The notes: generated from the letters alone by a model not told the origin. DNA of 64,000 nt from Candidatus Micrarchaeota archaeon (GCA_018304385.1 JAGVWJ010000008.1:1-64000), one strand, 5' to 3'; positions 13,395 through 59,224 are shown, counted from the first letter of the stretch. A program made the numbers and translations.

Positions 13395-13943
13395 CTAATT
13401 GCTTATTGTTTCTTTAATTAAATTCTCTAAACTATCATTAATTTCAAATCTTCCTATTAATGTTTCATTCTTAAAATACACTATTGGTACAACCCTATTA
13501 CTTAAATTATATTCAATAGCAAACTTATTATACTCTCCAAGATCCCCAGAGTTTGTTACACTATACTTTCTGAAGACTACTGAATTGTTATACTTTCCCT
13601 CCAAACGTTCTATCTCTGGCCAAATTGCCTGTGATGCATTGCAATAAGGGCTATAGAAGAAGTATACTCTTGGCATTGAGCCTTGGGCAGTGGGCAGTGG
13701 GCCAGACGAGTTCCCAGTATCAAGCATCCTGTTTCCAGTTCCCGGTTGCCAGTTTTCAGTCTCGATTTTTGCAATACTGTTTGACTCATCAGACAAATTA
13801 TTTTCTGAGGGAGCAAGATCGTTTTGTGGCTGATTGCTGATGACTGAAGGCTCAGGGCTTTTCACCTTATTTTTTTCTATTTGTTGTTGATTTATACAGC
13901 CAAAAAGCAGTATCATTATGACAAAGATTAGTAATATCCGCAT
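13395..13943 (-). CDS. Thioredoxin-fold lipoprotein (CxxS)
   Basis: Start placed at ATG 13943 (MRILLIF...LLFGC lipobox); FFYSPYCNAS, cis-Pro VVPIV, LIGRFEI. Confidence 0.8.
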   Translation of the reverse strand: MRILLIFVIMILLFGCINQQQIEKNKVKSPEPSVISNQPQNDLAPSENNLSDESNSIAKIETENWQPGTGNRMLDTGNSSGPLPTAQGSMPRVYFFYSPYCNASQAIWPEIERLEGKYNNSVVFRKYSVTNSGDLGEYNKFAIEYNLSNRVVPIVYFKNETLIGRFEINDSLENLIKETISN

Positions 13944-13994
13944 AAATACATTTTGGGACAAAGGTTTATAAATAAGGTATGTAGTAATATTAAT

Positions 13995-14255
13995 ATGCAC
14001 AAACTACAACTTGTTTGTATGCGTGCTGAGGCCAGCAATCGACCAGTTAGAAGAATACCAGTGCCAGAGCTCCCGTTTGGACCAAATTGGGTGCCACCAG
14101 ATTTCTGGAGAGATAAAGTACCTGGTAAAAGAAGTGGAGTACCTGAACAACCGGCAATACCATTGGAACTTCCATTAGAAGAACCTCCAATGCATAGAAG
14201 GGCTCCGCAACCTGAAGAAACTCCGCAAAGAGGAGTAGTAATACTTCAGATGTAA
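13995..14255 (+). CDS. Small Pro-rich hypothetical protein
   Basis: ATG 13995 lies about 20 nt after TTTATAAATA; 86 aa; divergent from the thioredoxin gene. Confidence 0.5.
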   Translation: MHKLQLVCMRAEASNRPVRRIPVPELPFGPNWVPPDFWRDKVPGKRSGVPEQPAIPLELPLEEPPMHRRAPQPEETPQRGVVILQM

Positions 14256-14894: not shown

Positions 14895-15404
14895 ATGTTA
14901 GACTTTCCTACCCAGATTTATATATCTCTAAAGACGATATTTAGAAATAAAAAATATATCTACTTATTTATCTTTCTAATTATAGCTGCTTTTGTAGCAT
15001 ATATACTGATACCAGTTTACACTATCCCAGGAAACGATTTGTCATTCTGGTTAAGTATAATGCCCTGGTGGGGATATCCAATAATATTTACTTTTGCTGT
15101 GGCGTTAGGCCTTCTTCTAACAATGAAGGTTTATGAATTTCGGCATAGCCATTCAGTGTTATCTAAGGCAGAAGATGCTGGCGGTGTTATAGCAGTAATA
15201 ATAGCAGGATTATATACGACTGCAGCATGCGGTGCCTGTATATCCTCATTATTTGCAATAGTTGGTGCAAGCGGTGCTCTATTTCTTAATCAAAATAGAG
15301 ATATTTTCATTGTACTCTCTGTAATTATAACGATTATTGCTATTTATTTTACTGCAAAGAAGATAAATTCAAAATGTAATGTTTGCACCACGCAAAACCG
15401 TTAA
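14895..15404 (+). CDS. Membrane protein with an intramembrane CxxC and a C-terminal CxxC
   Basis: Four hydrophobic segments; AACGAC; KCNVC. Confidence 0.7.
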   Translation: MLDFPTQIYISLKTIFRNKKYIYLFIFLIIAAFVAYILIPVYTIPGNDLSFWLSIMPWWGYPIIFTFAVALGLLLTMKVYEFRHSHSVLSKAEDAGGVIAVIIAGLYTTAACGACISSLFAIVGASGALFLNQNRDIFIVLSVIITIIAIYFTAKKINSKCNVCTTQNR

Positions 15405-15442
15405 AAGTAATATTTAAAAACTGTTGCACTTGAAATAATTGT

Positions 15443-18400
15443 ATGAGGTTGGGGTATAACGAAACTCGTGTTAGTAATTCTTCTTTTGACAGAGGCTTTA
15501 GAAATAGCAGTTTAATGAAAGCTGCTCATGCCTTTGTTACTGTTTGTTCAGCAGCGCTTTTTGCAATTGTTTCTCCTTCTAGTTCAAATGTTTTTCAGAT
15601 TAGAACAGCAGCTGCTCAAGAAGATATTGACTGCTATGAAATAGGAAAGGAAAGTGCTCAAAATTATAAAAAAAGTGGGAACGCTGATCAGCAAGCAAAG
15701 GCACTAGAAATGGCCAGATTGTGCGAAAAAGATGGTAAAAAATTTAGTGCTGCCAGTATTTATATTGAATTAGAAATGAAAGATGATGCCAAAAGAATAG
15801 CTGATGCATTAAGAGCAACAGGAAATGAAAGAGACGTAAGGAGTGCAGCAACACTCTATAAGAAATTAGGAATGAATCCTGATGAACCTGCACTTCCAGC
15901 AGCAGCACAAGCAGAACCACCTAGAGCAGCGCCTTTACTAGGTGAAGCTGGTGCAGGGGCAGTAAATGCAGGACAAACTAAAGACCCTGAACAAGAACGA
16001 GTTGAAAAATTAGCAGAACAATTAAGATTGGCAGAAACCGCTGAATCAGAGAAAAATTGGACTTATGCAGCTTATAGATACTTGGATGCTTATGCACTAT
16101 CAAGAGACAATGGACAGAAAACTGGATTAGATCAAAAAGTAAGAGAAATGGCAAATCTATTGATAGAAAAAGGAGACATTGGTTTAGTTGGTAGTATATA
16201 TCTCAGATTACACAAGCTAACAAGTGCACAAGATCTTCCTCCTAAAATAGATGCTGTAAGAAAATATCATGAGCTTTCAGAGGTAGCAAGGCACATCAAT
16301 GAGCATTTACTTGGAGAACGCCCGGAAAGATCAGCAATATTTAAAGGAGGTCTTGGCGGCGATCTTGATGTAAATGTGGTATCAGATAGTATGCACCACC
16401 TATACGGTGCACGGTATATACGAACAGACACTGAGATTACTGCATCACATAATTCTAAACAAACAGTTGCTGCAATAAAAGAATTACAAATATTTCTTGG
16501 GTTACAAGGAAAAGATGTAAATGTTACTGGAAAATTCGATGTTGCTACACGAGACGCAGTTCTAGCATTTGTTAAAGAAAAACAACCAACGCTTTTAGCA
16601 TTATTAAAAGGTGAAACAGTTGAAGTGGCAAGTGGCGTTGCAGTTAGCGCGCAAGAACTTGCAGCAGGACAAGGTGTTGCTCCAGCACAAGAACAAGCCC
16701 CAACTTATGAAAATCTAATGAAAGATGCGACAGCATTAGAACAAAAAGACTTAGTTAGTGCAGCTAATAAATTTATAGAAGCTTGTGAAGCCGCTAGAGA
16801 TGATAAACAAAAAATAGCTGCACGAGATAGAGTAGTTGCAATTGCAGATAAACTAGCAGGCAATGGTCAATTCTGGAAAGCTGCAGAATTTTATGAAGAT
16901 GCAGAAAACAAAGGGGATGAAACAGTTTCAAAAAAACTTATTTTAACTATAAAACTTGGAGCGCTTAATGATGCAAAGGATGCACTTAGGAGTTTAGAAA
17001 AAGACCCAGGTAATAAAGATAAAGAAACTGCTGTTATGTCTGCATTATATACAGATGGTTCAATACAAACTAGATTTATTGATTTAAATCCAGACGATGA
17101 TTTAGCAAGTTCGATAGAATGGATGCAAAGAGAACTTCTTGAATTTGATAATAGCGGGATTAAACCTACTGGAACATTCGGTCCAAAAACAAGAAGAATG
17201 TTAGCAGAAAAAATAGATCAGGATCTCGAACCATTATTAATAAGAGATTTAAATGCCGCACTTGGGCAGGCTGCACCTGGAGAAGTAGATTTAGGCGAGC
17301 CAATAGCTGAACCTGCACGTGAACCAGCACTACCACCAGAACAAAGGGCAGCAGTAGAAGAAGCAGCTAGAAGGGAGGCAGAAACTGAAAGACGTGCAGC
17401 AGCACAAGATGCAGAGGCAGCTGCGCAATTAAGAGCACAAGCGCCTCCTGCTTTACCGCCAGTCTCAGAACCTCCATCAGTCGCAAGATATTTCCCATTC
17501 ACACCAACATCAGTTGTTACTGCTGCAGATGGAAATCCTCATTTAATGTTTTCAGTAGGCGGAGATTATAGAAGACTAAGAGTAAATCTTCCTGGGATTA
17601 CTGCTAGACAAAATTCAAATATAGATTTAGGTGGAGCACACGGACTCTATTTATTTGAATCAGGATTTGGGATTGGAGCAGAATGGCAGAATACAATAGC
17701 AAGACTTGCATTCCCATTAAATGAAAAGGAGTATGAATGGAGTTCATTAAGAAATTTCTTTGGTTTAGTATTAAGATATACTGACAGAAGCGAAGGTGGG
17801 CATACACTATCTCTTCAACTAGTTCCAGGTGGTTCTCGTGTGCAAGTAGGAACAAACGAAATATGCGATCCAGCAACTGGTGCAATTTGCCAAACTACTT
17901 TTGGAGAGTTTGGAATTAAAGGACAAATAATTTATTCAACACCAGATGAGGTATTTACTGTATTAGTTGCTGGAAATAGCAATCCTTACGATCAAGCAAG
18001 AGGGGCATTAGAAGGAAGAGTTCCGCTTAGCTTTGTTAGTGGCCAACCAATATTAGTAGAAGTAACAGGTGGAACGCACAGGTTGGTATTGCAAGAAGAT
18101 GAAACAGGCGTTACAGGAGAGCCAAATGCTAGAAGATGGCATGGTGCATTAGAACTTAGATTACCTGTTTGGGGACCAGATCCAAATTTCTATGGCGGAC
18201 TTTTAGGAAGAGGCGGAGTAGAAGTTATTGATCCTACAACTTATGATTCAAGCAGATATTTATCAGCGAATGCAGGTGGTTTCTTAGAGCTTGGACCAGT
18301 GCAATTAGTATTACAATATAAATGGCATTTAAGAGAGGATCAAAGAGGATTATTCTTATCCTTAGGTATGTTACTAGGTGGACCAACAGGTGCACAAGGA

Positions 18401-18520
18401 GATGGCAACGCAAGATTCTTAGGTGCGGGTGTTGCTGAATGGGCTAGACTAAATGCATTTGATGCCCCAGGATCATTTACACCAGAAAATGCAGTTGTGC
18501 GTGTAGGAGCAACAAGATAA
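15443..18520 (+). CDS. Secreted multidomain protein: TPR-like helices, two peptidoglycan-binding-like domains, Ala/Pro linker, C-terminal beta-barrel-like domain
   Basis: Extended signal ending AAAQ; IKELQIFLG..VTGKFDVATRDAV and IEWMQREL..PTGTFGPKTRR; amphipathic strands from about 17480 to the end. Confidence 0.7.
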   Translation: MRLGYNETRVSNSSFDRGFRNSSLMKAAHAFVTVCSAALFAIVSPSSSNVFQIRTAAAQEDIDCYEIGKESAQNYKKSGNADQQAKALEMARLCEKDGKKFSAASIYIELEMKDDAKRIADALRATGNERDVRSAATLYKKLGMNPDEPALPAAAQAEPPRAAPLLGEAGAGAVNAGQTKDPEQERVEKLAEQLRLAETAESEKNWTYAAYRYLDAYALSRDNGQKTGLDQKVREMANLLIEKGDIGLVGSIYLRLHKLTSAQDLPPKIDAVRKYHELSEVARHINEHLLGERPERSAIFKGGLGGDLDVNVVSDSMHHLYGARYIRTDTEITASHNSKQTVAAIKELQIFLGLQGKDVNVTGKFDVATRDAVLAFVKEKQPTLLALLKGETVEVASGVAVSAQELAAGQGVAPAQEQAPTYENLMKDATALEQKDLVSAANKFIEACEAARDDKQKIAARDRVVAIADKLAGNGQFWKAAEFYEDAENKGDETVSKKLILTIKLGALNDAKDALRSLEKDPGNKDKETAVMSALYTDGSIQTRFIDLNPDDDLASSIEWMQRELLEFDNSGIKPTGTFGPKTRRMLAEKIDQDLEPLLIRDLNAALGQAAPGEVDLGEPIAEPAREPALPPEQRAAVEEAARREAETERRAAAQDAEAAAQLRAQAPPALPPVSEPPSVARYFPFTPTSVVTAADGNPHLMFSVGGDYRRLRVNLPGITARQNSNIDLGGAHGLYLFESGFGIGAEWQNTIARLAFPLNEKEYEWSSLRNFFGLVLRYTDRSEGGHTLSLQLVPGGSRVQVGTNEICDPATGAICQTTFGEFGIKGQIIYSTPDEVFTVLVAGNSNPYDQARGALEGRVPLSFVSGQPILVEVTGGTHRLVLQEDETGVTGEPNARRWHGALELRLPVWGPDPNFYGGLLGRGGVEVIDPTTYDSSRYLSANAGGFLELGPVQLVLQYKWHLREDQRGLFLSLGMLLGGPTGAQGDGNARFLGAGVAEWARLNAFDAPGSFTPENAVVRVGATR

Positions 18521-18550
18521 ATATATAATTCTTAGTGTTCTTATTTTTTT

Positions 18551-19312
18551 ATGGATTTGAAAGCTATAGAAAAGTATTTGGATCCATACCGAATCATTTT
18601 TCTATCTCTAATAATTCTTGTTCTTATAAACGGGCAGTTGCAAGGTTTTAATGATGCAATTTTATCCTCGCTTACAGCCCTGGTTGTTTCTGTTGCAGTA
18701 GACGTAATAGCCACATATATAAAAACCAAAAAAATAATTTTATCTTATGGTCCGGCAATAAGTGGATTAATACTTGCATTAGTTTTTTCACCTAATCTAC
18801 CATTATATAATATTGCTGGAACTGCTGCGCTTGCGCAAGTGCTAAAACATATTGTTCGATATAAAAATAATAATCTCTTTAATCCAGCATCACTTGCAAT
18901 GATAATTGTTTTCTTGCAAGTTCCTGCAGAGGCATGGTGGGGAAATAAAATTCCAGAAGCATTGATACTTGGTCTAATCGTTTCTTGGAGAATAAAACGA
19001 TTGCCTGCAAGTATTACATTTATGATCGCATATACTATTTTTAGTATGTTGGTTGGGTCGCTAATAGCCAAAAGCCAACAGCCAATAGCAAATTATATTG
19101 ATCTATCAACTGGCTGGGTTTTCTTTGCTTTTTTCATGCTTGTTGAACCAAGAACATCACCGCGCGCATTGAAAGCACAGATAATGTATGCTTCGCTGAT
19201 TGCGTTGATTGCTACAATGGGTTTTACTTATAGTTTACATTCACCAATATTACTTGCGTTATTAATTGGAAATGCAGCTAGTACATTTTATTTTAGTAAG
19301 CTAAAAAATTAG
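18551..19312 (+). CDS. Stand-alone RnfD/NqrB-like membrane protein
   Basis: GPAISGLILAL, NLFNPA, FAFFMLVEPRTSP; about 8 TM segments. Confidence 0.8.
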   Translation: MDLKAIEKYLDPYRIIFLSLIILVLINGQLQGFNDAILSSLTALVVSVAVDVIATYIKTKKIILSYGPAISGLILALVFSPNLPLYNIAGTAALAQVLKHIVRYKNNNLFNPASLAMIIVFLQVPAEAWWGNKIPEALILGLIVSWRIKRLPASITFMIAYTIFSMLVGSLIAKSQQPIANYIDLSTGWVFFAFFMLVEPRTSPRALKAQIMYASLIALIATMGFTYSLHSPILLALLIGNAASTFYFSKLKN

Positions 19313-19467
19313 TCATTTTCTTCAAGTTTCTTTTTCAACTGCGCTATTTCTTCATGCAGAAATATGTTCTTTTTTAGAGGATCCATCTTTGCTTTCTTTT
19401 CAAGTTCCTCTAGCTTTGCTTTTATGTTTGCTTTTCTTCTAGAAAGATCTTTTTTGCTCATTCCCAT
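19309..19467 (-). CDS. Small basic coiled-coil hypothetical protein
   Basis: MGMSKKDLSRRKANIKAKLEELEKK...; start moved downstream of the track start. Confidence 0.6.
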   Translation of the reverse strand: MGMSKKDLSRRKANIKAKLEELEKKAKMDPLKKNIFLHEEIAQLKKKLEEND

Positions 19468-19547
19468 ACTGAGTATTAAAATAATAAAATTAATAAATAA
19501 GACCTTTGACGCGCATCGCGTCAAAATTTTTCATCAAAAGGAAAAAA

Positions 19548-19829
19548 CGCCTCCGCCGGGGTTGACGGCCTTGCTGTCAAATCTTGTCCGACAGGACAAG
19601 GCTTTCGAACCCGGGTCGTGGACGAGCTGCTCAGTCCTGAGTTTTCTGTTCTGCGTTTCGCGTCACTAGTTTTTCTCAGGGCTTTTGACCAATGTCTTTA
19701 CTTTTGCCACAAGTATGGCAGAAGTCAAAAGTAATGACTGACAGGCCCATATGCTAACCATTGTGCTACTACTTAACGAAGTAGTTTTGGGGTGCCTTTT
19801 CCTAAAAGGCATAACTACACCACAGAGGC
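19548..19829 (-). tRNA. tRNA-Asp(GUC) with three introns (15/16, 37/38, 59/60)
   Basis: Exons 19829-19815, 19760-19739, 19624-19604 and 19561-19548 join to a 72-nt cloverleaf GCCTCTGTGGTGTAG|TGGTTAGCATATGGGCCTGTCA|CGTCCACGACCCGGGTTCGAA|CCCCGGCGGAGGCG; followed by T6. Confidence 0.92.
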
Positions 19830-19888
19830 ATAAAGAATATAAACGGTGTGGGGTAATCTTTTTAAGCGCTTACTTTTTATATCATCTT

Positions 19889-20551
19889 ATGAAAAAGATA
19901 AAAATCTTAGGAATGACGCTTGATACGTTCATGGGAATATTTATATCTCTCGTTACAGTAATCGCTGCTTGGACCTCAAACCAATCTGGTGATTACATCC
20001 AAGAGGCAAATGATTTAAACAGACAGTCCCTTAACCACCTTGTAAATGCAAGCAACTGGTGGAATTATTACCAAGCACATAGATTACGTGTGACACTGTT
20101 TGAAAACGATATAATTGATGAAAGCGGAAAAGATGTTTTTAAAATATTAGAAGAATATGATGATAAAGTCTCTAAGAACAACACGCCTATAAGACAAGAA
20201 CTATTAGATACACTAAAAGGAGAAGGAGTTAATACTGCAAAACTAGATAGCTATTTAACTGGCCTAGAGAAAAGTTCCTTAAAATATAAAGATGGACAAG
20301 AATACGCAAGAAATGCAGAAAAGGCACAAGCAAAAGCAGCGGATGCAGCCGCAGTTGCGACGGATTATGCAACTGCTTATCAGGTTATCACTCTTATACT
20401 AGTTATATCAATGGGCTTAGGAGGTATAGCAGTTATTCTAAACATACCTGGGCTTGCATTTGGTTCAATCTTAGTTGGAGTTGCGGGTATATTACATTTA
20501 TTATTAATTTTATTTGCTCCTGGAATAGTTGGATTAACCCCACTAAACTAG
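19889..20551 (+). CDS. DUF4337-like membrane protein
   Basis: Start at ATG 19889 (the track extension overlaps tRNA-Asp); N-terminal TM, ASNWWNYYQAH, two C-terminal TMs. Confidence 0.7.
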   Translation: MKKIKILGMTLDTFMGIFISLVTVIAAWTSNQSGDYIQEANDLNRQSLNHLVNASNWWNYYQAHRLRVTLFENDIIDESGKDVFKILEEYDDKVSKNNTPIRQELLDTLKGEGVNTAKLDSYLTGLEKSSLKYKDGQEYARNAEKAQAKAADAAAVATDYATAYQVITLILVISMGLGGIAVILNIPGLAFGSILVGVAGILHLLLILFAPGIVGLTPLN

Positions 20552-20615
20552 AAAGATATAAGAAACTCGTTTTTGTCTATATCTAGTAACATTTATAAAG
20601 TGTTATAAATATAAT

Positions 20616-22355
20616 ATGATGATGAGATTGCATTATAGCAACTCCACTAATTCCAATCAGAAAAACCCTAATCGCTTTAGGATAGCACATGCTATAAAAA
20701 ATATTGGGACTGCGATATTCGCAACATTTTTTCTAGCAAACACTGCACATGCTGCAGAAACAACCAGACCACGTACTAATTCTGATATAGCTATTTCAGG
20801 TGATGGAAATAATAGATCGCAGCTTGTTATTGGAGGAGAATATTTTAGATATAGAGATTCGGTCCCAACACTAGCTGGAGATTCTAATCAACATACAGAT
20901 CAACATACGGTAAGTGCCAGTTTGGCATTGCGTGTTGCAAACCCTTTATTTATCATTGGAAGGTATGCATATACAAATGCTGAATTGGATCTTAATCTTG
21001 CAAGTGGACCGTATAGTGGGGCTTATACTACAGCAGTTGATAGAAAGGATTCTATACTTGCAGGGCTTAAGCTAGTTCTTGATACAAATGCAGGGGCATT
21101 TTTTATTCAGGCATTAGGGGGTGTAATAATCCCCAGAGATTATAGAACAGAAGTAATTGGTATGCCTCCAATAGTTAATAACGCTCCAGTTGATTTTGAT
21201 GGTATGTTAGAAGGAGTGTATCTATCCCCAGCACAAAAATTCGCCATTTTTACTACAGTATTGCGCAATGCATTTGACCCATTTATATTTTCTTTGCAAG
21301 ATCGCCATTTGCCAAGTTTAGTAAATGGTGTTCCAACCGTTGTTGAGGCTAACGCAACAAGCCACCGTATATATCTACAACAAACAGATGATGGTGTCAC
21401 AGAACACCCAAACGGTAGGCGTTATCTTGGTTCTTTGGATTTATTTGTCCCTGCCTTTGGTTCAGATGAATTGTATGCGGGGCTTGATGGTGGGGTAGGA
21501 TATGATATCATTTGCCCACTTAATGAATGCGGAAATGAAGAAATACATAGATTTATGGCTAATGGCGGTGCTTTCTTCGATCTTGGGTCCATTCAAATTT
21601 CTATTGATTACAATCATCATGGCAAGGATAATATGCTTGTTCTAACAGTAGGTACGTACGCTGAAAGTAAAAAACTATTTTTTGGTGGAAGATACATTCG
21701 TCCACTTAATGACGCTAGAACAGAACATGCAGTAGTAAGGGCAGGTATTAACGAGGAAACTGAGGAGAGTTCACGCGATGGAACGGATAGTGGAGGTGGC
21801 GGGGATTTAGGGGGAAGTAGTCCTGATGGCAAAGATAAAAGAGATACTAAGGGAACAGAAATTACACCTCCAGAAGCAGGGCAAGAGGATGAAGTACAAG
21901 CGCCTCCAGACGCAGGTAGCCAACCTGACCCAATAAATGCTGGCAGAACAGTTGAAGTAACAGATTTACCTGCAGAGCTCCAAGGAAAAAACCAAAGAGA
22001 AATAGGAAGAATCCTAAATGTATTGGAATATGATTTCAATAATCTGACGTATGTGCCTTGGCAAAAGGTAATAAATGATTTAGTAAATACGGGTTACTTA
22101 GACACGAATAAAATAAATATAAGTACAGGACCTAAAAACAGACGGATGAAAAAAGCAGTTGAAGATCTCCAAAGAACAATTAACGAATATTTAGGAACGC
22201 GAAACCTTCAATATTATTATCGTGGCGAAAATACCACAACCCCATTAGATGATGACGGCCAGATTGGTGGAAGAACGGCTGCTGCAACATCAGCATTTCT
22301 AAAATTCGCAATAAATGAAATCAGAGCAGCCTATCAAATGGAACTGTTTGAATAA
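20616..22355 (+). CDS. Secreted protein: N-terminal beta-barrel-like domain, acidic/Pro linker, C-terminal peptidoglycan-binding-like domain; paralog of 15443..18520
   Basis: Signal ending TAHAA; SHRIYLQQTDDGVTEHPNGRRYLGSLDL matches THRLVLQEDETGVTGEPNARRWHGALEL; AVEDLQRTIN..DDDGQIGGRTAAA. Confidence 0.7.
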   Translation: MMMRLHYSNSTNSNQKNPNRFRIAHAIKNIGTAIFATFFLANTAHAAETTRPRTNSDIAISGDGNNRSQLVIGGEYFRYRDSVPTLAGDSNQHTDQHTVSASLALRVANPLFIIGRYAYTNAELDLNLASGPYSGAYTTAVDRKDSILAGLKLVLDTNAGAFFIQALGGVIIPRDYRTEVIGMPPIVNNAPVDFDGMLEGVYLSPAQKFAIFTTVLRNAFDPFIFSLQDRHLPSLVNGVPTVVEANATSHRIYLQQTDDGVTEHPNGRRYLGSLDLFVPAFGSDELYAGLDGGVGYDIICPLNECGNEEIHRFMANGGAFFDLGSIQISIDYNHHGKDNMLVLTVGTYAESKKLFFGGRYIRPLNDARTEHAVVRAGINEETEESSRDGTDSGGGGDLGGSSPDGKDKRDTKGTEITPPEAGQEDEVQAPPDAGSQPDPINAGRTVEVTDLPAELQGKNQREIGRILNVLEYDFNNLTYVPWQKVINDLVNTGYLDTNKINISTGPKNRRMKKAVEDLQRTINEYLGTRNLQYYYRGENTTTPLDDDGQIGGRTAAATSAFLKFAINEIRAAYQMELFE

Positions 22356-45089: not shown

Positions 45090-46460
45090 ATGCAGCCAAA
45101 TAAAATTCTTGTAATTCTGTTTATTGCGCTATTATTCTTTTATGGGTGTAACCAGACTCAACCTACACCTCAACCTTCACCACAACCTGCTCCAAGCCCA
45201 GAACCGGCGCCTACTCCAGCGCCTCAACCTCAACCAACGCCTCAGCCCTCGCCCACTCCAGAACCAATAGACTATACAACATCTGATCAAAAAGCTGATG
45301 CAGTTGATAAATCGCTAACTGCTTCCAACAAAGAATTCGCATTTAAAATTTTTAAAGAGCTTAACAAAGAGGACAACGATAAAAATATCTTTATTTCTCC
45401 ATTTAGTATTTCCGCTGCCTTAGCTATGGCATATAATGGGGCAGAAGGAGAAACCAAAAAAGCTATGGCAAATGCACTACAATTGGATGACACTGAAATA
45501 GAAAACATAAATAATGCTTATTCAGATCTGATTGCAAGCCTAGAAAACGCAGATGCAGAAATAAAAATAAACATTGCAAACTCTATCTGGACAAGCAATG
45601 AGTTCGAGCCTATTGTTAAAAAAAGTTTCACGGATAAACTAAGATCATCTTACGACAGTGAATTATATACAAAAGATTTTGGAAACCCGCAAACAGCCAA
45701 TGATATAAATGACTGGATAAACGATAAAACTGGGGGAAAGATAACTAAAATGATAGGTGATATAGACCCTAGTTTGGTTATGTTTATTATAAATGCTATC
45801 TACTTCAAAGGTGATTGGACAACTAAATTTGATGAAAAATATACAAAGAAGGATGATTTCTTTTTGTCTAGTGGGCAAGCGATTAAAGTTGATATGATGT
45901 CTGTTTACGGGGGGAACTTTAGCTATTATAGAGGAGATAATTTCAAATTAGGTAGATTACCTTATGGAAGAAACAAAATCGCGATGTATATCTTCCTGCC
46001 AGATGAGGGCGTTTCTCTAGATCCTTTTATTGAATCGCTGGATAAAGAATTTAGTGAGTATATAAAAAATATGTGGCAAGAACATGAGCTTGAGGTTAAG
46101 CTTCCTAAATTCAAAATAGAATATGGCAAGAAAAGGATAAATAAACCTTTAGAGATATTGGGCATGCAAATAGCTTTTGATAAGTTGAATGCGAATTTCA
46201 CAGGTATTGCAGAACCAATAGATAATAATATTTACATAGATTATGTTGACCATAAGGCTGTAATTGAAGTTAACGAAAAAGGAAGTGAAGCTGCAGCAGT
46301 AACAGTTATAGGGATAGGCATAACAGGTAGTGCTCCTGGCGATCTACCCCCAGAACCTCCTCGCCTTTTCGTAAACCGCCCATTCTTTTTTGTAATAATG
46401 GATGACCGAAGCGGATCTATATTATTTATGGGTAAGGTTGTTGATCCTTCTAAAAATTAA
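45090..46460 (+). CDS. Serpin lipoprotein
   Basis: FFYGC lipobox, PQPTP linker, NIFISPFSI, INAIYFKGDW, NEKGSEAAAVT hinge, VNRPFFF. Confidence 0.95.
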   Translation: MQPNKILVILFIALLFFYGCNQTQPTPQPSPQPAPSPEPAPTPAPQPQPTPQPSPTPEPIDYTTSDQKADAVDKSLTASNKEFAFKIFKELNKEDNDKNIFISPFSISAALAMAYNGAEGETKKAMANALQLDDTEIENINNAYSDLIASLENADAEIKINIANSIWTSNEFEPIVKKSFTDKLRSSYDSELYTKDFGNPQTANDINDWINDKTGGKITKMIGDIDPSLVMFIINAIYFKGDWTTKFDEKYTKKDDFFLSSGQAIKVDMMSVYGGNFSYYRGDNFKLGRLPYGRNKIAMYIFLPDEGVSLDPFIESLDKEFSEYIKNMWQEHELEVKLPKFKIEYGKKRINKPLEILGMQIAFDKLNANFTGIAEPIDNNIYIDYVDHKAVIEVNEKGSEAAAVTVIGIGITGSAPGDLPPEPPRLFVNRPFFFVIMDDRSGSILFMGKVVDPSKN

Positions 46461-52738: not shown

Positions 52739-54691
52739 CTATCTTTTCAGCATAGCTGAAAATCTTTTTGCTAATTCATTAGCACCATCTGTACCAAGTG
52801 ATGGATTACCTTCCAACAAGAATAGGGCGACTGCTCGATAAAACTGTTTTAAACTATCTTTAACTACAAAGATTGTTCCATCATAAACTGGAACTCCAAG
52901 AACTAGTTTTGGCGGTCTGTAGTGAACACCTTCTTTCTCTAGTGCCTTTCGTATTTCTTCATCTTCAATATTATCTAAAGAGGGAACAGCAACAATATTG
53001 ACGCTTCCATCATTTACTCTAATATAACCATGTTTCTTTGAAATATCTTTTCTTTTTATAAAGTCTCTAAAATCTGCAACTGCCTGTTCATATTTTCTTG
53101 CAATAAAACCAGCATTAATTCCTTCAACAGCTCTTATTTCTAATTTTAAACCGTCAAATCTTTCAGTATAATAACTCGCATCTTTAATTCCAATATCTGC
53201 CAATTGCGATAAATTAACCCTTGTATCTCCAACATATGGAATTTGCACGCTTGGGATGTGGTCTCTTTTTATCCATCCAACATTTAATGCAACTACTGTT
53301 GCGCCAATTAAAATTGCTGCAGTTGTTGCGATCTTAAAAGGAATGCGAACGCTGGCCTTAATTATTTTTCCAACAGTCCATTTTCTTTCTGGCTTGATTT
53401 GTTCTACCTTACCTTCGCCTAGCTCTTGTGTCATTGCAATCTCAAAGTCCTCGCGAAATACACGCATGCTCGGAAATCTTTTTGCAGGATCTTTATCTAA
53501 TGCACGCTGGAATACATCATTTAGAAACTTACCAGCTTTCACACCCATTTCATTTAAGCTAGGTGGCGGTTTTGAAAGATGACCCATGCGAGGATCATCT
53601 TCAAATAATTTTTTCCCAGTTAATGCCTCTACGATTGTGGCAGCCAAAGAATAAACATCTGCTGCTGCAGTTAGCGGCTGCCCCAAAATTGCTTCCCTAG
53701 GCATGTAATGAGGACTTCCCATACTCATTCCGGTCCTAGTCAAATGATCCTGATTTGACTCTCCTTGAATCTTTGCAATTCCAAAATCAGCTACCTTTAC
53801 AAGTAATTTTCCGCCTTCTTCTCTAACAATTATATTTGCTGGTTTTATATCACGATGTAGAACACCTTTGTCATGCGCGTATTCAAGCGCATCAAAAACC
53901 TGCCTGAAAATAGCTAGTAACTCTTTTTGAGATAACCTTTCTCTTTTTCTGTTTTTTTCAGCAAGAATATCTGCAAGGTTTTTTCCTTCGATAAAATTCA
54001 TCACTAATGCAGCTTCGCCTGTTGGAAGAAAATGATAATTATTAAGCTGAACTATGTTTGGGTGATCCAACATTGCAAGTGCTCTTGCCTCCTGCTCGAA
54101 TCGTGCCCTAAATTCAGCACTTTGTGACATAACTAAAAGATTAAGGGATTTTATTGCAACCTTCTGACCAGTTACAGGGTGCTCACCAACGAATACATAA
54201 CCCATACCACCCATTCCGATGAGTTCTTTTACAACGAAACCGGAAATATTTGTATTAATAAATCTCTCTACATCTAAAAGTATTGATGTTGCTTGATCTA
54301 ATGCGCTCGCTAGGATTTTCTCGTCTTCTTTTGTTTGTGGTACTGCGATAACTGCAATATTACCATTTTCCATTCGTGCAAGCTGAATAATTTTTACAAC
54401 CGGGATTATTTCTGCAATTAGAGCAGCGGTCTTAGCAATTCTTTCTTCTATACCATCCTGCAAGGTTTGCTCTCCAACAATTTTTATAAAAACCTCTTTT
54501 CTGCTTTCTGCATGTGAAGCAACATAAATATTGCCTATTGACCTTTGGACAAGATAGTTTGCAATCGTAGTTCCTATCATGGACGTGCGATTAATGGCTT
54601 CTGCTAGCGGCATTGGTTTTATTCCAACAGGAGTAATTCTTCTATCTGCTTGAGTTGGCCCAAGCACATCAACTCGTGGTGGTGTTGCCAT
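52739..54691 (-). CDS. Hanks-type Ser/Thr protein kinase with an N-terminal extension, a TM helix and a C-terminal domain
   Basis: GMGGMGYV, VAIK, HRDIKPAN, DFGIAK, GSPHYMPRE, DVYSL; TM IATTAAILIGATVVAL. Confidence 0.93.
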   Translation of the reverse strand: MATPPRVDVLGPTQADRRITPVGIKPMPLAEAINRTSMIGTTIANYLVQRSIGNIYVASHAESRKEVFIKIVGEQTLQDGIEERIAKTAALIAEIIPVVKIIQLARMENGNIAVIAVPQTKEDEKILASALDQATSILLDVERFINTNISGFVVKELIGMGGMGYVFVGEHPVTGQKVAIKSLNLLVMSQSAEFRARFEQEARALAMLDHPNIVQLNNYHFLPTGEAALVMNFIEGKNLADILAEKNRKRERLSQKELLAIFRQVFDALEYAHDKGVLHRDIKPANIIVREEGGKLLVKVADFGIAKIQGESNQDHLTRTGMSMGSPHYMPREAILGQPLTAAADVYSLAATIVEALTGKKLFEDDPRMGHLSKPPPSLNEMGVKAGKFLNDVFQRALDKDPAKRFPSMRVFREDFEIAMTQELGEGKVEQIKPERKWTVGKIIKASVRIPFKIATTAAILIGATVVALNVGWIKRDHIPSVQIPYVGDTRVNLSQLADIGIKDASYYTERFDGLKLEIRAVEGINAGFIARKYEQAVADFRDFIKRKDISKKHGYIRVNDGSVNIVAVPSLDNIEDEEIRKALEKEGVHYRPPKLVLGVPVYDGTIFVVKDSLKQFYRAVALFLLEGNPSLGTDGANELAKRFSAMLKR

Positions 54692-54695
54692 TTTA

Positions 54696-55742
54696 TCATC
54701 TTTTTAATAGCCTATCAAGTAGTCTTCTTCCTGGAGGCCTTGTATCGGTGGTGCTCTCAAGCGATCCTGCATTACGTAATCTTTCAAGGTCTTCTCTGAC
54801 TTCAGTTGCTGAATCATATCTTTGCGTTTTATCCTTAGAAAGCAATCTTAATGCAACTGCTTCAAGTTCTTTTGAAACAGCAGCATTAAGCGTTCTAACT
54901 GCAGCTGGAGTACGCTCTATGTGCTGCGTTCTAATCATTAGGCTTCTTGTTTTTTCATCAGGATCATCGCTTTTAAATGGAACTGTGCCAGTAAGCAATT
55001 CATACAGAATAATACCAAAAGAGTAGAGATCAGCCTTTGCATCTACATTGCTGCTTGCTATTTGTTCTGGAGACATATATTCTGGGGTTCCCATTGTTAC
55101 TCCCATGGTAGTACGTGTAAAACCTACACCACCTTCTATTCTTGAGACGCCGAAATCAATTATTTTTAATATACCATCTTCACATATAAAAATATTGTCT
55201 GGTTTTAAATCCCGATGAACTATTCCAGTACTGTGTATCTCTTCTAACGCTTCTAATATCAGAATACCCATTGCCACTGCGTCTTTTATTGGAATTCTCA
55301 TATCTTTTAGTATATCAGATAGTACTGCTCCCTTAAGTAATTCAGTAACAAGAAAAGTAGCTTCTGTATCCTCAAAATAATCATAGCAGGTAAGTATAGA
55401 AGGATGGCTAAGTTGTGTTAGAAAGAATGCTTCTGCCCTAAAGCGTTGTGTTATTGCTGGATCTTTCCTTCCTATTTTTATCGCAATCTCGTCACCTACT
55501 GCTAAACCATCCTCAAATCTTCTTCCCTTATATACCGCTCCGACACTACCATCTCCTATTTTTCTTTCTACTAGGTATGTGCCTTTAGTACCTTTAAGTC
55601 TCTTCGCGGTATAATCCTTGACTGGATCTTGGGAAAGAGGTTCCTTTCCAAAAAATGCAGTAGCCCTTCTGACAAATGCCTGCTCGCCACCACGTAGACT
55701 AACAGGTAGGACAAACATTAACTTAGTTCGTTGCTGACTCAT
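54696..55742 (-). CDS. Hanks-type Ser/Thr protein kinase, soluble
   Basis: GDGSVGAVY, IAIK, HRDLKPDN, DFGVSR, GTPEYMSPEQ, DLYSFG. Confidence 0.95.
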   Translation of the reverse strand: MSQQRTKLMFVLPVSLRGGEQAFVRRATAFFGKEPLSQDPVKDYTAKRLKGTKGTYLVERKIGDGSVGAVYKGRRFEDGLAVGDEIAIKIGRKDPAITQRFRAEAFFLTQLSHPSILTCYDYFEDTEATFLVTELLKGAVLSDILKDMRIPIKDAVAMGILILEALEEIHSTGIVHRDLKPDNIFICEDGILKIIDFGVSRIEGGVGFTRTTMGVTMGTPEYMSPEQIASSNVDAKADLYSFGIILYELLTGTVPFKSDDPDEKTRSLMIRTQHIERTPAAVRTLNAAVSKELEAVALRLLSKDKTQRYDSATEVREDLERLRNAGSLESTTDTRPPGRRLLDRLLKR

Positions 55743-56807: not shown

Positions 56808-58151
56808 TTACTCTACACTCCAATTATATCTTTCTTCAGCTCTTGAAACCTTATCTCTTTCAATATAAGTTCTTGCCTTTTCTGAAAAGGTATTTGGATA
56901 AGTATCTTTTTGATACTCGATTTTTAATTTGGCGCGGGACCCTGATTCATCTATGTTAAATATTCCATAATATACGCTATCATGAGTAGTAATTACTATC
57001 TTATTGTTTTTATAATCAGCTTCCCAATCACCAGAAAGTATGACTGATCCGCTATCCTCTACCCCAACAACGCGCTGTTTTTTGTAATATTTTGTATTAT
57101 TGGTGAAAAATACAAGCACATCAGGAGTTTCGTCAATTACCCATTGCTCTGACTTTAGATACCATTCACCAATAAGCTCTCCTTTATGGCCTTTATGAAA
57201 CAAAATTGGATTAGTAAGATACGGTTCCCATGGCGTTGGCACGACTCCGGATACATCTTTGCCCTTTGAAAGTATTGGATCTACTTCTTTTAGATATTTT
57301 TCAACGAACTGTTTTTTCTCATTCTCTTGTAAATAATCAAATGGAGAAACTAGTGTTGCTCCCTTTATGAATTTATACCAATGAACAACACCATCTCGCC
57401 TATGCTGATCTGCAACATTAAATTCAGCAAACTGATATCCTGGCGCATGTGCAAATTTTTCACCATAACCAACTGGATCACCTGCCTTTACCTTATCACC
57501 AGGTTTTACGAGAGATCTTTGAACATGCATATGCTCGCCCCAAAGCCCATCTCCATAATAAATAATTATATTGGGAGTATCAACTGAGCCCCCTTCTAGA
57601 TCATTGACGTAAACAACTACACCATCAGCCCAACTACGAATAGGAATATTATCTTTAATGGATATCCATTCATGATCTAATCCTTCAGCATGGCCTCCTG
57701 GATGCGCCCCATATGCGCCAATCTGAGCGTATAGTATATCCTCTAACTTGGCAGGTAATATAAGTCGTACAGAAGAAGCGCCTTCTGGCAATGGTTGTGT
57801 TACAGCATCAGTAACCCATTCTTTAGGCTTTGCAGCCTCTGGCACTTCACATAATTCATGTGATAGGTTTTTATTACAAAAATCATTGCATCTTCCTACA
57901 TTGCTCTTGCAAAAAACAAAACAATCTTGCAGTGATGAACAAAAACCCATTCCTTTTGTTTGTGTTAGATCCTCTTCTACAGGTTCAGCTTTTTGTTCTT
58001 TTTCTATTTTTATCTCTGGTTTAGTTTCAGTTTTATTTTCCTTTGTAGATGTTTCAATTTTTGTTTCCTCTTTCTTCACTAATGTTTTATTTGTATCAGA
58101 GACATTTACAGTTTTCTCCGTAACATTTTCTTGTTGAACACATCCGCTCAA
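56808..58151 (-). CDS. M23-like lipoprotein with a Cys-rich motif; signal peptide disrupted
   Basis: LSGC lipobox at the start; HAEGLDH, HMHV, VKPGDKVKAGDPVG; the upstream ATG 58162 (MKAY) is out of frame. Confidence 0.7.
   Translation of the reverse strand: MSGCVQQENVTEKTVNVSDTNKTLVKKEETKIETSTKENKTETKPEIKIEKEQKAEPVEEDLTQTKGMGFCSSLQDCFVFCKSNVGRCNDFCNKNLSHELCEVPEAAKPKEWVTDAVTQPLPEGASSVRLILPAKLEDILYAQIGAYGAHPGGHAEGLDHEWISIKDNIPIRSWADGVVVYVNDLEGGSVDTPNIIIYYGDGLWGEHMHVQRSLVKPGDKVKAGDPVGYGEKFAHAPGYQFAEFNVADQHRRDGVVHWYKFIKGATLVSPFDYLQENEKKQFVEKYLKEVDPILSKGKDVSGVVPTPWEPYLTNPILFHKGHKGELIGEWYLKSEQWVIDETPDVLVFFTNNTKYYKKQRVVGVEDSGSVILSGDWEADYKNNKIVITTHDSVYYGIFNIDESGSRAKLKIEYQKDTYPNTFSEKARTYIERDKVSRAEERYNWSVE
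58052..58150. repeat. 99-bp perfect direct repeat, copy 1
   Basis: Identical to 59107-59205; encodes SGCVQQENVTEKTVNVSDTNKTLVKKEETKIE. Confidence 0.92.
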
Positions 58152-58243: not shown

Positions 58244-59224
58244 TTATCTTTCAGTTATATTATGTAGTAAACATCCTGGAGCAACCCAAGCTTCTTGTTT
58301 GTAAACGTCTTTACCAATAAACTCTTCCCAATCATTTGCTAATCTATTTATTTTTTCTTTATACATTGGTTTTAATGAGTTGTCTAAAAATTCAAATGGG
58401 CAATACTTAATAATATTTTGACCCCCAGTCCATACATTAATCTCAACATTTCCAAATTCTATTTTTCCGTAAGAAGGGGATACTTCAGCTAGTTCTTGGC
58501 CCACTAGGACCTTGTCTCCGGGTTTTATACGCACATTATAAACATGCTCAAATCCAACGATCCAAGGAGAGGATTCATGAGTTTTTATAGAAATAAGATA
58601 GTCTTGTGACGGCTCGAAAAAATTCACATCTGTAATAACTCCCTCAATCGGGGATATAACTTTAGTGCCTACAGGAACATTAAACCCTATTTCTGGAAGC
58701 AGCTTGTCACCCATCTCATTAATTACTCTATGAGCAAACTCAGTAAAAATTTTATCGTCAACATAGTTCTTGTTTTCAAATAAAAAATCTCCCGCCATAT
58801 TTGTTTTTCTGTCCCAAGGTTCTATTTTGATGCCTAAATTTTTTAGGACGGGCTCCATTTCTTGTAGTTTCTCTGTTTGTTCCGTTTCTTCTTGAGGTAG
58901 AAAAATTATTTTGCATAGCTCATTCTTACTTCCTTTACAATATGATTCACAACGTCCGCGATTACTCAGGCAAAAATTTTTACATTCTCCTTCTCCTGTA
59001 CATAAATCACCAAGTTTAGGAATCTGGGATGCATTTGAAAGGATTGTTTTATTATATTTTTCCAAAGAATTGTTGAGAGTTGTTTCTGCAGGTAATATGG
59101 ACTCGTTTTCAATTTTTGTTTCCTCTTTCTTCACTAATGTTTTATTTGTATCAGAGACATTTACAGTTTTCTCCGTAACATTTTCTTGTTGAACACATCC
59201 GCTCAGATTGCATAAGTAACTCAT
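58244..59224 (-). CDS. M23-like lipoprotein with a Cys-rich motif; signal peptide missing
   Basis: LSGC; VISPIEGVITDV, FEHV, IKPGDKVLVGQEL; the only nearby in-frame ATG (59224) overlaps the divergent gene start. Confidence 0.65.
   Translation of the reverse strand: MSYLCNLSGCVQQENVTEKTVNVSDTNKTLVKKEETKIENESILPAETTLNNSLEKYNKTILSNASQIPKLGDLCTGEGECKNFCLSNRGRCESYCKGSKNELCKIIFLPQEETEQTEKLQEMEPVLKNLGIKIEPWDRKTNMAGDFLFENKNYVDDKIFTEFAHRVINEMGDKLLPEIGFNVPVGTKVISPIEGVITDVNFFEPSQDYLISIKTHESSPWIVGFEHVYNVRIKPGDKVLVGQELAEVSPSYGKIEFGNVEINVWTGGQNIIKYCPFEFLDNSLKPMYKEKINRLANDWEEFIGKDVYKQEAWVAPGCLLHNITER
59107..59205. repeat. 99-bp perfect direct repeat, copy 2
   Basis: Identical to 58052-58150. Confidence 0.92.

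What the first reader, a model, noticed from the sequence alone, without database searches (positions are those of the whole stretch)
15443..22355. Paralogous beta-barrel-like plus peptidoglycan-binding proteins in an archaeon: candidate bacteria-targeting system
Seen: 15443..18520 and 20616..22355 both have extended signal peptides beginning MRLxY. They share a homologous domain of many amphipathic Gly/aromatic strands (e.g. SANAGGFLELGPVQLVLQYKWH versus MANGGAFFDLGSIQISIDYNHH). Both carry PG_binding_1-like motifs (I/V..L/MQ..L/I...G.F/I(G)..T) at about 16460-16570, 17110-17215 and 22150-22300, with domain order swapped between the two. Known: barrel plus PG-binding is an OmpA-like architecture of Gram-negative envelopes, and archaea have neither peptidoglycan nor a BAM-dependent outer membrane. 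The flanking genes are unambiguously archaeal. Inference: these proteins insert into or dock on a bacterial envelope. With the M23-like proteins, kinases, serpin and zincin, this suggests a DPANN archaeon that parasitises or attacks bacteria.
Basis: partly seen in the sequence, partly recalled or inferred. Interest (0 to 1): 0.88.

Follow-up and report, generated by a model that had tools for sequence, protein, structure and literature searches.

The report
Porin-like barrel proteins in a Micrarchaeon
A tiny groundwater archaeon (Micrarchaeota) encodes two exported paralogs predicted to fold like the 16-stranded pore barrels of Gram-negative outer membranes, each joined to a surface-binding module; archaea are not known to make such proteins, so which membrane they enter is an open, testable question.

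Summary
The two genes are real, native and paralogous. They share a ~330-aa domain (27% identity, E 1e-23). AlphaFold2 on an 11-sequence alignment folds it as a closed 16-strand barrel (pLDDT 80, pTM 0.81). All 50 best of 48,161 solved chains are membrane barrels, led by PgaA at Z 15.2; no soluble fold competes.

The PG-binding claim holds only partly. P0001 has two PG_binding_1-like repeats, each just under the cut-off (21.8 and 19.2 bits; 29.3 together against 23). The P0002 module fails Pfam and profile comparison, and the P0001 orthologs lack the repeats.

The contig is not chimeric. Eleven contigs from several assemblies carry P0001, gene order is kept in related Micrarchaeota, GC3 is native, and both genes have an archaeal TATA-like box.

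The family is tiny, fast-evolving and confined to one Micrarchaeota family, with no bacterial sequence relatives. The genome (89% complete) shows no Omp85, TamB, LptD, Mur ligase or SLH, and the barrels end in a basic residue, not an aromatic one.

My reading is a BAM-independent tether-plus-pore in a second lipid layer, either a partner cell's membrane or the archaeon's own outer layer. A specifically anti-bacterial role is unsupported but not excluded. This scan has already reported other porin-like barrel families in other DPANN genomes.

The parts
15443..18520 (+). P0001, 1025 aa. Layout: extended signal peptide (1-~58); lineage-specific helical repeats with two PG_binding_1-like repeats (~344-385, ~557-587); Pro/Ala/Glu-rich linker (~600-684); C-terminal 16-strand barrel domain (~685-1025).
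   Evidence: barrel by homology to the modelled P0002 domain
17483..18517 (+). Barrel domain of P0001
   Evidence: profile match E 1.7e-126; BLASTP to the P0002 barrel, E 1e-23
16460..16600 (+). First PG_binding_1-like repeat of P0001 (21.8 bits alone, cut-off 23)
17111..17206 (+). Second PG_binding_1-like repeat of P0001 (18.5-19.2 bits alone)
20616..22355 (+). P0002, 579 aa. Layout: extended signal peptide (1-~47, AHA/AE site); N-terminal 16-strand barrel (~68-380); Gly/Ser/Asp/Pro linker (~386-440); family-specific C-terminal module (~440-579) with GYL and DGxIGGRT motifs.
20748..21770 (+). Barrel domain of P0002, the sequence that was modelled (pLDDT 79.8, pTM 0.81, 16 strands)
21933..22352 (+). 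C-terminal module of P0002. It is shared with P0004 and P0006, and sits N-terminally in P0008. It is not a demonstrable PG_binding_1.
15405..15442 (+). Archaeal TATA-like box (AGTAATATTTAAAAA) about 20-25 nt before the ATG of P0001, conserved in the nzgw32 ortholog
20586..20615 (+). Similar TATA-like box (GTAACATTTATAAAG) before the ATG of P0002
14895..15404 (+). 169-aa five-helix membrane protein with two conserved CxxC motifs. It lies directly upstream of a barrel gene in three loci (window, L007, L008). Its function is unknown and its family is widespread and unnamed.
18551..19312 (+). 253-aa RnfD/NqrB-like membrane protein. It lies directly downstream of the P0001 ortholog in three species of the genus.

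Best explanation
P0001 and P0002 belong to a small, fast-evolving, Micrarchaeota-specific family of exported proteins. Their core is a 16-stranded antiparallel barrel of the bacterial or organellar outer-membrane type.

Proposed mechanism:
- The protein leaves the cell by the Sec route, using a signal peptide with a conserved long N-extension.
- The barrel embeds in a lipid bilayer that lies outside the archaeon's cytoplasmic membrane.
- With an even number of strands, both barrel ends lie on the same (cis) side. The helical-repeat, PG_binding_1-like or GYL modules therefore end up on that side whether they are fused to the N- or the C-terminus.
- The modules reach back through a flexible or coiled-coil linker to grip a surface polymer or protein.
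- The protein thus acts as a tether plus channel, like OmpM or OmpA, or like the TPR-barrel secretins PgaA, PelB and BcsC. Insertion must be BAM-independent.

Which bilayer is not shown. I put about 55:45 on the membrane of an attached partner or host cell over an outer membrane-like layer of the archaeon itself.

Shown: the genes, the paralogy, native origin, the export signal and the modular swap.
Predicted: the barrel fold and its topology.
Inferred: lipid embedding, the tether-and-channel role, and the identity of the membrane.
For: Fold:
- AF2 on 11 sequences gives pLDDT 79.8 and pTM 0.81, with all five models at 74.5-79.8, and 16 long strands in a meander.
- Foldseek finds at least 165 PDB hits at E<=1e-3, and the listed top hits are outer-membrane barrels.
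- VIA-align against 48,161 chains without a prefilter returns only membrane barrels in the top 50: PgaA 4y25 (Z 15.2, rmsd 4.3, 245 residues), PopA 13.4, PelB 13.2, BrkA 13.1, BamA/TamA about 12.
- Partly independent: the ESM Atlas single-sequence model aligns with autotransporter barrels (TM 0.54-0.60), and its language-model neighbours include named outer-membrane-barrel clusters (0.91-0.94).
- The nearest predicted models are bacterial TPR+barrel proteins (TM 0.57-0.58).

Topology:
- Connections on the side opposite the termini average 8.6 residues, against 3.6 on the termini side.
- One face of the strands is 87% lipid-compatible and 3% charged. The other face is 21% charged.

Architecture:
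- The modules sit N-terminal in P0001, P0007, P0016, P0008 and P0019, and C-terminal in P0002, P0004 and P0006.
- P0008 has a stalk of about 110 residues that looks like a coiled coil, with a weak Lpp hit.

Native and expressed-looking:
- GC3 is 0.17 and 0.24, against 0.22-0.33 in the neighbours.
- TATA-like boxes precede both genes.
- Synteny pelota-Trx-PdxT-5TM-barrel-RnfD is kept in nzgw32 and G244.
- P0001 is on 11 contigs; the three shown, from three samples, have the same neighbours.

Fast evolution fits a surface or interaction protein: the orthologs are 38% identical where pelota is 86%.

Precedents for barrels that enter another cell's membrane are Bdellovibrio PopA and Neisseria PorB (PMC12228718). 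ARMAN cells were reported with two layers (PMC4243693).
Against: - No coordinates could be inspected, so barrel closure and which face points outward rest on alignments and on strand patterns. I picked the hydrophobic face as the more hydrophobic one, which biases that figure.
- The alignment behind the model has only about 8-9 distinct sequences. A 3-sequence alignment gave pLDDT 29.
- No insertion machinery was found in the 89%-complete genome: Omp85, TamB and LptD_N are all missing.
- The barrels end in R, K or Q rather than an aromatic beta-signal.
- The cultured Micrarchaeum harzensis has an S-layer and not a second membrane (bioRxiv 10.1101/2021.04.28.441871).
- The family is missing from most relatives searched: 5 of 99 genomes in the family and 2-3 of 401 in the phylum. 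That is odd for a core envelope part.
- There is no expression or localisation data.
Confidence: 0.55

Rival explanations
1. One reading: the barrels insert into, or dock on, the outer membrane and peptidoglycan of bacteria. They would be part of an anti-bacterial or bacteria-parasitising tool-kit together with the M23 peptidases, the serpin and the kinases.
For: - P0001 passes the PF01471 whole-protein cut-off (29.3 against 23 bits).
- Two M23 peptidase genes lie in the window; 56808-58151 passes at 36.9 bits.
- The genome has no Mur ligase, so any peptidoglycan it binds would be foreign.
- Archaea with peptidoglycan hydrolases that kill bacteria are documented (PMC12352652).
- The fold is that of bacterial outer-membrane proteins.
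Against: - Each repeat alone is under the cut-off and covers only about half the model.
- Orthologs P0007 and P0016, and paralog P0002, have no detectable PG_binding_1. Peptidoglycan binding is therefore not a family trait.
- PF01471 is a three-helix bundle that also occurs in proteins that do not bind peptidoglycan, such as metalloproteinase pro-domains (established knowledge). It also hits Methanosarcina in the control set.
- A protein arriving from outside would leave its modules outside the bacterial outer membrane, not next to the peptidoglycan.
- The M23, serpin and kinase genes lie 23-37 kb away and are not linked to the barrels in relatives.
- No bacterial sequence relatives were found.
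Confidence: 0.12
2. The barrels are resident proteins of an outer membrane belonging to the archaeon itself, making this lineage diderm. They would work as an OmpM-like tether and porin. This is the own-membrane branch of the best explanation, stated on its own.
For: - The architecture of binding module, linker or coiled coil, and 16-strand barrel matches resident tethers and secretins: OmpM (PMC10628300) and PgaA, PelB and BcsC.
- Short turns on the termini side and long loops opposite follow the rule for resident outer-membrane proteins.
- ARMAN cryo-ET was read as two membranes (PMC4243693).
- No Methanosarcina-type S-layer domain was found.
- A possibly related barrel-like domain (P0021 type) occurs in 10 of 28 genomes of a sister genus.
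Against: - Micrarchaeum harzensis has an S-layer instead (10.1101/2021.04.28.441871).
- No Omp85, TamB or Lpt homologs were found.
- The family is patchy among relatives.
- The module sets are replaced wholesale between species of one genus, which looks more like an adhesin than a core envelope part.
Confidence: 0.25
3. The domain is not lipid-embedded. It would be a soluble or S-layer-associated beta-rich surface domain, and AlphaFold2 closes it into a barrel only because of its amphipathic Gly/aromatic strands.
For:
- The Atlas model has pLDDT of only 0.50.
- TM-scores to solved barrels are moderate (0.3-0.47).
- There is no beta-signal and no BAM.
- Archaeal surface proteins are often beta-rich.
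Against: - Five concordant models give pLDDT 74.5-79.8 and pTM 0.81.
- No soluble fold appears among the top 50 of 48,161 chains.
- A 16-strand barrel is too wide to have a hydrophobic core, yet one strand face is almost free of charge.
- Language-model features point independently to outer-membrane barrels.
Confidence: 0.2

Closest known systems
TPR-barrel exopolysaccharide secretins PgaA, PelB and BcsC (PDB 4y25, 9h80, 6tzk, 9b8a)
   Same: They give the best structural matches: PgaA Z 15.2 (245 residues, rmsd 4.3), PelB Z 13.2, BcsC Foldseek E 1.8e-6. They have a 16-strand C-terminal barrel preceded by helical repeats, as in P0001, P0007 and P0016. The nearest Atlas models are also TPR+barrel proteins.
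   Different: Sequence identity is only 9-11% and there is no Pfam TPR hit. No polysaccharide synthase genes are nearby. The organism is an archaeon without BAM. In P0002 the barrel comes first.
OmpM of diderm Firmicutes (SLH domain, coiled-coil stalk, 16-strand barrel; PMC10628300) and OmpA-type tethers
   Same: The logic is the same: a wall-binding module on the cis side, a spacer, then a porin-like barrel. P0008 even has a stalk of about 110 residues that looks like a coiled coil.
   Different: No SLH or OmpA_C domain was found. The organism makes no peptidoglycan. The module can sit at either end. Trimer formation was not tested.
Autotransporter beta-domains (BrkA 3qq2, EspP, Hbp, AIDA-I; PF03797), with their extended signal peptides
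   Same: The structural scores are high (Z 12.7-13.2). There is a long conserved N-extension before the signal peptide, and a large non-barrel part fused to the barrel.
   Different: Autotransporter barrels have 12 strands, whereas 16 are predicted here. There is no PF03797 or ESPR hit at E<=1. The C-terminus is not aromatic.
Bdellovibrio PopA (9gf0) and Neisseria PorB, outer-membrane barrels that are transferred into another cell's or an organelle's membrane (PMC12228718)
   Same: PopA is the second-best structural match (Z 13.4, 246 residues). Both are precedents for a barrel working in a foreign membrane.
   Different: There is no sequence similarity. PopA is a pentamer made by a diderm with BAM and has no appended modules.
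Other porin-like barrel families reported by this scan in DPANN archaea (e1-1100118, e1-5120157, e1-5222899, e1-3526383, e1-2794670, e1-5230608, e1-3747726, e1-5120158)
   Same: They share the same theme: exported, confidently predicted outer-membrane-type barrels in small archaea that lack BAM.
   Different: No look-alike sequence is in the scan index. This case comes from Micrarchaeota, has 16 strands, is fused to binding modules at either end, and ends in a basic residue.

Membership tests
Outer-membrane-type transmembrane beta-barrel (fold class) | Closed antiparallel meander barrel with an even number of strands | tested here: met
   By prediction only. AF2 gives 16 strands, pLDDT 79.8 and pTM 0.81. 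The whole PgaA barrel aligns at Z 15.2.
Outer-membrane-type transmembrane beta-barrel (fold class) | Lipid-facing hydrophobic belt, with short turns on the termini side and longer loops opposite | tested here: inconclusive
   The strand-face and loop-length pattern fits. However, the coordinates could not be inspected, and the hydrophobic face was chosen by its hydrophobicity.
BAM-dependent bacterial outer-membrane proteins | C-terminal beta-signal ending in an aromatic residue | tested here: not met
   C-terminal barrels end in ...VGATR...NVGIR...VIPK...YLKKQ and ...ISYAR.
BAM-dependent bacterial outer-membrane proteins | An Omp85/BamA insertase in the same genome | tested here: not met
   PF01103 was not found in the own genome at 89% completeness, while the controls ring in 7 diderm bacteria. 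TamB and LptD_N were also not found.
Named Pfam outer-membrane-protein families (OMP_b-brl, Autotransporter, Porin families, OmpA) | A profile match at or near the gathering score | tested here: not met
   No family matched at E<=5 for six barrel domains, and none for the whole proteins.
PG_binding_1 (PF01471) | Profile match above 23 bits in P0001 | tested here: inconclusive
   The whole protein scores 29.3 bits and passes. The single repeats score 21.8 and 19.2 bits, below the cut-off, and each covers about half of the 57-position model.
PG_binding_1 (PF01471) | Profile match in the C-terminal module of P0002 | tested here: not met
   There is no hit at E<=1. hhalign of the module alignment against the P0001 repeats gives E 0.089 and 0.39.
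PG_binding_1 (PF01471) | Actual binding of peptidoglycan | not testable with these tools
   This needs a sacculus pull-down.
TPR-barrel secretins (PgaA/PelB/BcsC) | TPR repeats before the barrel, and linkage to a polysaccharide synthase operon | tested here: not met
   The helical repeats are internally repeated but give no Pfam TPR hit. No synthase genes lie next to either gene.
OmpM-type tether | An SLH domain | tested here: not met
   PF00395 was not found in the genome.
Autotransporter (type Va) | A 12-strand barrel with PF03797 and the ESPR motif | tested here: not met
   16 strands are predicted, and there is no PF03797 or PF13018 hit.

The most novel reading that the evidence does not exclude
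A lineage of Micrarchaeota makes genuine lipid-embedded beta-barrel proteins of the outer-membrane type without any Omp85-family insertase. They use their own terminal signal (a basic residue, not an aromatic one) and appended tether modules. If so, either archaea can have an outer membrane that carries beta-barrels, or a DPANN archaeon plants a barrel pore in its partner's membrane as the long-sought conduit of the symbiosis. The fold would have arisen or been assembled independently of the bacterial BAM pathway.
Probability: 0.4. Interest if true: 0.9.

Novelty: new variant of a known kind. Interest (0 to 1): 0.72.

Why it matters
Transmembrane beta-barrels are textbook markers of bacterial, mitochondrial and plastid outer membranes, and they depend on Omp85-family insertases. 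I found no open paper that mentions both beta-barrels and Micrarchaeota. For DPANN as a whole I found only one sentence, on a possible Altiarchaeales relative (PMC12228718).

If these proteins really sit in a bilayer, they bear on three open questions:
- whether some archaea are truly diderm;
- how DPANN cells open a channel to their partners;
- whether barrel insertion can work without BAM.

The family gives concrete, small and expressible test objects. The 340-aa barrel could go into liposome or bilayer assays, and the modules into binding assays.

Tried and rejected
- AF2 on a 3-sequence alignment failed (pLDDT 29). It succeeded only after I added weak family members found by genome searches.
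- The search for related loci with the 6-sequence barrel alignment found no stretch conserved enough to search with.
- Word-based homolog searches found only P0004.
- hmmsearch of the barrel profile and of the module profile against PDB sequences gave only chance hits: halorhodopsin at E 0.17 and LlaGI at E 0.19. phmmer of the P0001 N-terminal region against PDB found nothing.
- P0009 from the exhaustive search is a spurious repetitive protein.
- I checked the proteins downstream of the RnfD-like gene in relatives (P0017, P0018) as possible P0002 equivalents. They are unrelated cytoplasmic proteins.
- I examined the 5-TM neighbour as a possible insertion factor or VKOR/DsbB-like protein. There is no family hit, and it belongs to a widespread unnamed family, so I make no claim.
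I used multi-assembly recurrence instead.
- I rejected recent bacterial gene transfer or contamination: GC3 is native, the promoter boxes are archaeal, synteny is conserved, and there are no bacterial sequence relatives.
- I did not send a complex-prediction job, because I claim no specific protein-protein contact.


Full report
**Observation.**
- BLASTP aligns P0001 685-975 with P0002 52-346 at 27% identity, E 1e-23. The paralogy is real, and the shared domain is C-terminal in one protein and N-terminal in the other.
- Both proteins begin with MRLxY, followed by about 25 polar or basic residues, a hydrophobic core and an AxA-type cleavage site.
- The extension is coding. In the ortholog from a related genome it is conserved, it differs by in-frame 3- and 6-nt indels, and it starts about 20-25 nt after a conserved AGTAA(T/C)ATTTAAAAA box. 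A similar box (GTAACATTTATAAAG) precedes P0002. Reading these boxes as archaeal TATA elements on leaderless mRNAs is my inference.

**Origin.** The window belongs to a 1.53-Mb genome in 65 contigs, 89% complete and 0.9% contaminated.
- The flanking genes are archaeal: pelota, AMP phosphorylase, an IF-2B-family protein (a ribose-1,5-bisphosphate isomerase by my reading), and ribosomal L10 with the RL10P insert.
- A syntenic contig of a same-genus relative is titled 'MAG: Candidatus Micrarchaeota archaeon isolate nzgw32'.
- The order pelota, thioredoxin-like, PdxT, 170-aa membrane protein, barrel protein, RnfD-like is kept there. A third species of the genus (G244) keeps the barrel protein plus RnfD-like pair.
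- P0001 occurs letter for letter on 11 contigs. The three shown come from three samples and have the same neighbours.
- GC3 of the two genes (0.17 and 0.24) is at or below that of their neighbours (0.22-0.33).
- Mis-assembly and recent bacterial import are therefore rejected. A read-level check was not possible.

**The shared domain.** Pfam, NCBIfam and PDB sequence searches find nothing.
- An exhaustive HMMER search of 1.8 billion representatives found only five real relatives: P0004 and P0006 (P0002-like), P0005 (a truncated copy of P0001), P0007 (P0001-like) and P0008.
- Genome searches added P0016 (G244) and the weak members P0019 and P0020.
- A 3-sequence alignment gave a useless model (pLDDT 29).
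- The 11-row alignment A7 gave pLDDT 79.8 and pTM 0.81, with five concordant models and 16 long strands in a meander.
- Foldseek returned at least 165 PDB hits at E<=1e-3, and the listed top hits are outer-membrane barrels.
- VIA-align against 48,161 representative chains, with no prefilter, put only membrane barrels in its top 50. These were PgaA (Z 15.2, rmsd 4.3, 245 residues), PopA (13.4), PelB (13.2), BrkA (13.1), BamA/TamA (about 12), and lower down Toc75, Sam50 and VDAC.
- The ESM Atlas gives partly independent support. Its single-sequence model (pLDDT 0.50) aligns with autotransporter barrels at TM 0.54-0.60, and its feature neighbours include named outer-membrane-barrel clusters at 0.91-0.94.
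- The nearest predicted models are bacterial TPR+barrel proteins.
- From the model's strand map, connections on the termini side average 3.6 residues and those on the opposite side 8.6. One strand face is 87% lipid-compatible and 3% charged, against 21% charged on the other.
- I could not inspect coordinates, so barrel closure and face orientation are inferred.

**The appended modules.** P0001 carries a lineage-specific helical repeat (internal E 9e-5; also present in P0016).
- It also has two PG_binding_1-like repeats. Each is just under the 23-bit cut-off (21.8 and 19.2 bits) and covers half the model. Together they score 29.3 bits.
- Orthologs P0007 and P0016 lack these repeats.
- P0002 carries a different module of about 130 aa, which I call the GYL module. 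Its motifs are GYL and DGxIGGRT. It is shared with P0004 and P0006 and sits N-terminally in P0008.
- That module gives no Pfam hit, and hhalign against the P0001 repeats gives E 0.089 and 0.39.
- P0008 adds a stretch of about 110 residues that looks like a coiled coil (weak coiled-coil family hits, including Lpp) between module and barrel.
- Because a 16-strand barrel has both ends on one side, moving the module from one terminus to the other keeps it on the same side. The 'swapped order' is topologically neutral.

**What is missing.**
- The own genome shows no Omp85, TamB, LptD_N, SLH, Mur ligase or Methanosarcina-type S-layer domain, while the control genomes ring.
- C-terminal barrels end in R, K or Q, not in an aromatic beta-signal.

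**Distribution.**
- With the barrel profile, hits are found in 5 of 99 genomes of the taxonomic family and 2-3 of 401 of the phylum sample.
- Orthologs diverge fast: 38% identity where pelota is 86% and RnfD-like 79%.
- A genome-wide hmmsearch found a third weak paralog, P0022 (E 2.7e-7), with no signal peptide seen. It also found P0021, a P0020-like protein with the same style of signal peptide.
- The P0021-type C-terminal domain occurs in 10 of 28 sampled genomes of a sister genus, and only in this taxonomic family.
- The link of the P0021 type to the barrel profile is suggestive only (hhalign probability 27%, E 6.6e-4).

**Interpretation.** The best-supported reading is an exported, BAM-independent barrel of the outer-membrane type, with tether modules on the cis side. 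It would be a tether plus channel in a second lipid layer.
- The closest analogies are OmpM (PMC10628300), the TPR-barrel secretins, and, for a foreign membrane, PopA and PorB (PMC12228718).
- Which layer it enters is open. ARMAN cells were read as having two membranes (PMC4243693). The cultured Micrarchaeum has an S-layer instead (10.1101/2021.04.28.441871) and an archaeal host (PMC8975820, from its abstract).
- Fast evolution, patchy distribution and wholesale module replacement make me lean slightly towards a partner-cell membrane.
It is not excluded, since archaeal peptidoglycan hydrolases that kill bacteria exist (PMC12352652), but nothing here supports it specifically.

**Novelty.** I found no open paper that holds both 'Micrarchaeota' and 'beta-barrel'. 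One 2025 sentence mentions a possible Altiarchaeales relative of PopA. This scan has already reported several other porin-like barrel families in other DPANN genomes, and none resembles this family in sequence. I therefore class it as a new variant of a kind the scan already knows. The variant is a new family in a new phylum, with 16 strands, modules fused at either end and a basic C-terminus. Interest remains high because the underlying question is unresolved and directly testable.

Noticed in passing
window 14895-15404: A 169-aa five-helix membrane protein with invariant PVYxIPGN..FWL..PWW and two CxxC motifs (one inside a helix, one C-terminal). It sits directly upstream of a barrel gene in three loci. 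It belongs to a widespread unnamed family (Atlas clusters labelled Microcaldota, Nitrososphaerota and Woesearchaeota), and weak feature neighbours carry HMA or YHS metal-binding domains.
   Followed up: partly
window 18551-19312: A stand-alone 253-aa RnfD/NqrB-like membrane protein (PF03116, E 6e-15; far below the equivalog cut-offs). It is 69-79% identical across the genus and always lies just downstream of the P0001 ortholog. No other Rnf or Nqr subunits are nearby.
   Followed up: partly
G000 contig C52:523-2064 (L024) and C34 (L025:3515-4876, minus strand): Two further weak relatives of the barrel domain in the same genome. P0021 has the same extended signal-peptide style and a P0020-like N-domain. 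P0022 shows no signal peptide and ends in ...AFRY. The P0021-type domain is present in 10 of 28 sampled genomes of a sister genus.
   Followed up: partly
L008:2480-4585 (P0008): A family member with two N-terminal GYL modules, a stretch of about 110 residues that looks like a coiled coil (weak Lpp leucine-zipper hit) and a C-terminal barrel. This layout resembles OmpM. A CAP-domain protein is encoded next to it.
   Followed up: no
window 45090-46460: A full-length serpin (PF00079, E 7.7e-111) in this small archaeal genome.
   Followed up: no
window 52739-55742: Two adjacent eukaryote-type Ser/Thr protein kinases (Pkinase, E 2e-45 and 2e-52).
   Followed up: no
window 56808-58151 and 58244-59242: Two M23 peptidase-like genes (36.9 bits, passes; 27.4-30.1 bits, borderline). 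Two weaker copies lie on other contigs. The genome has no Mur ligase, so their substrate is not self-made murein.
   Followed up: partly
window 19364-19669: A 101-aa Phe/Ser-rich ORF with no family hit. It overlaps the stretch where another first-reader note places an intron-split tRNA on the minus strand, so it is probably not a gene. ARAGORN and Rfam found no tRNA anywhere in the window.
   Followed up: no
window 13395-14000: A thioredoxin-like protein with a lipobox-like signal (…LLFGC). It is conserved in synteny (39% identical in nzgw32). Both barrel paralogs carry a conserved Cys pair in an outward loop (CPLNEC in P0002, CDPATGAIC in P0001).
   Followed up: no
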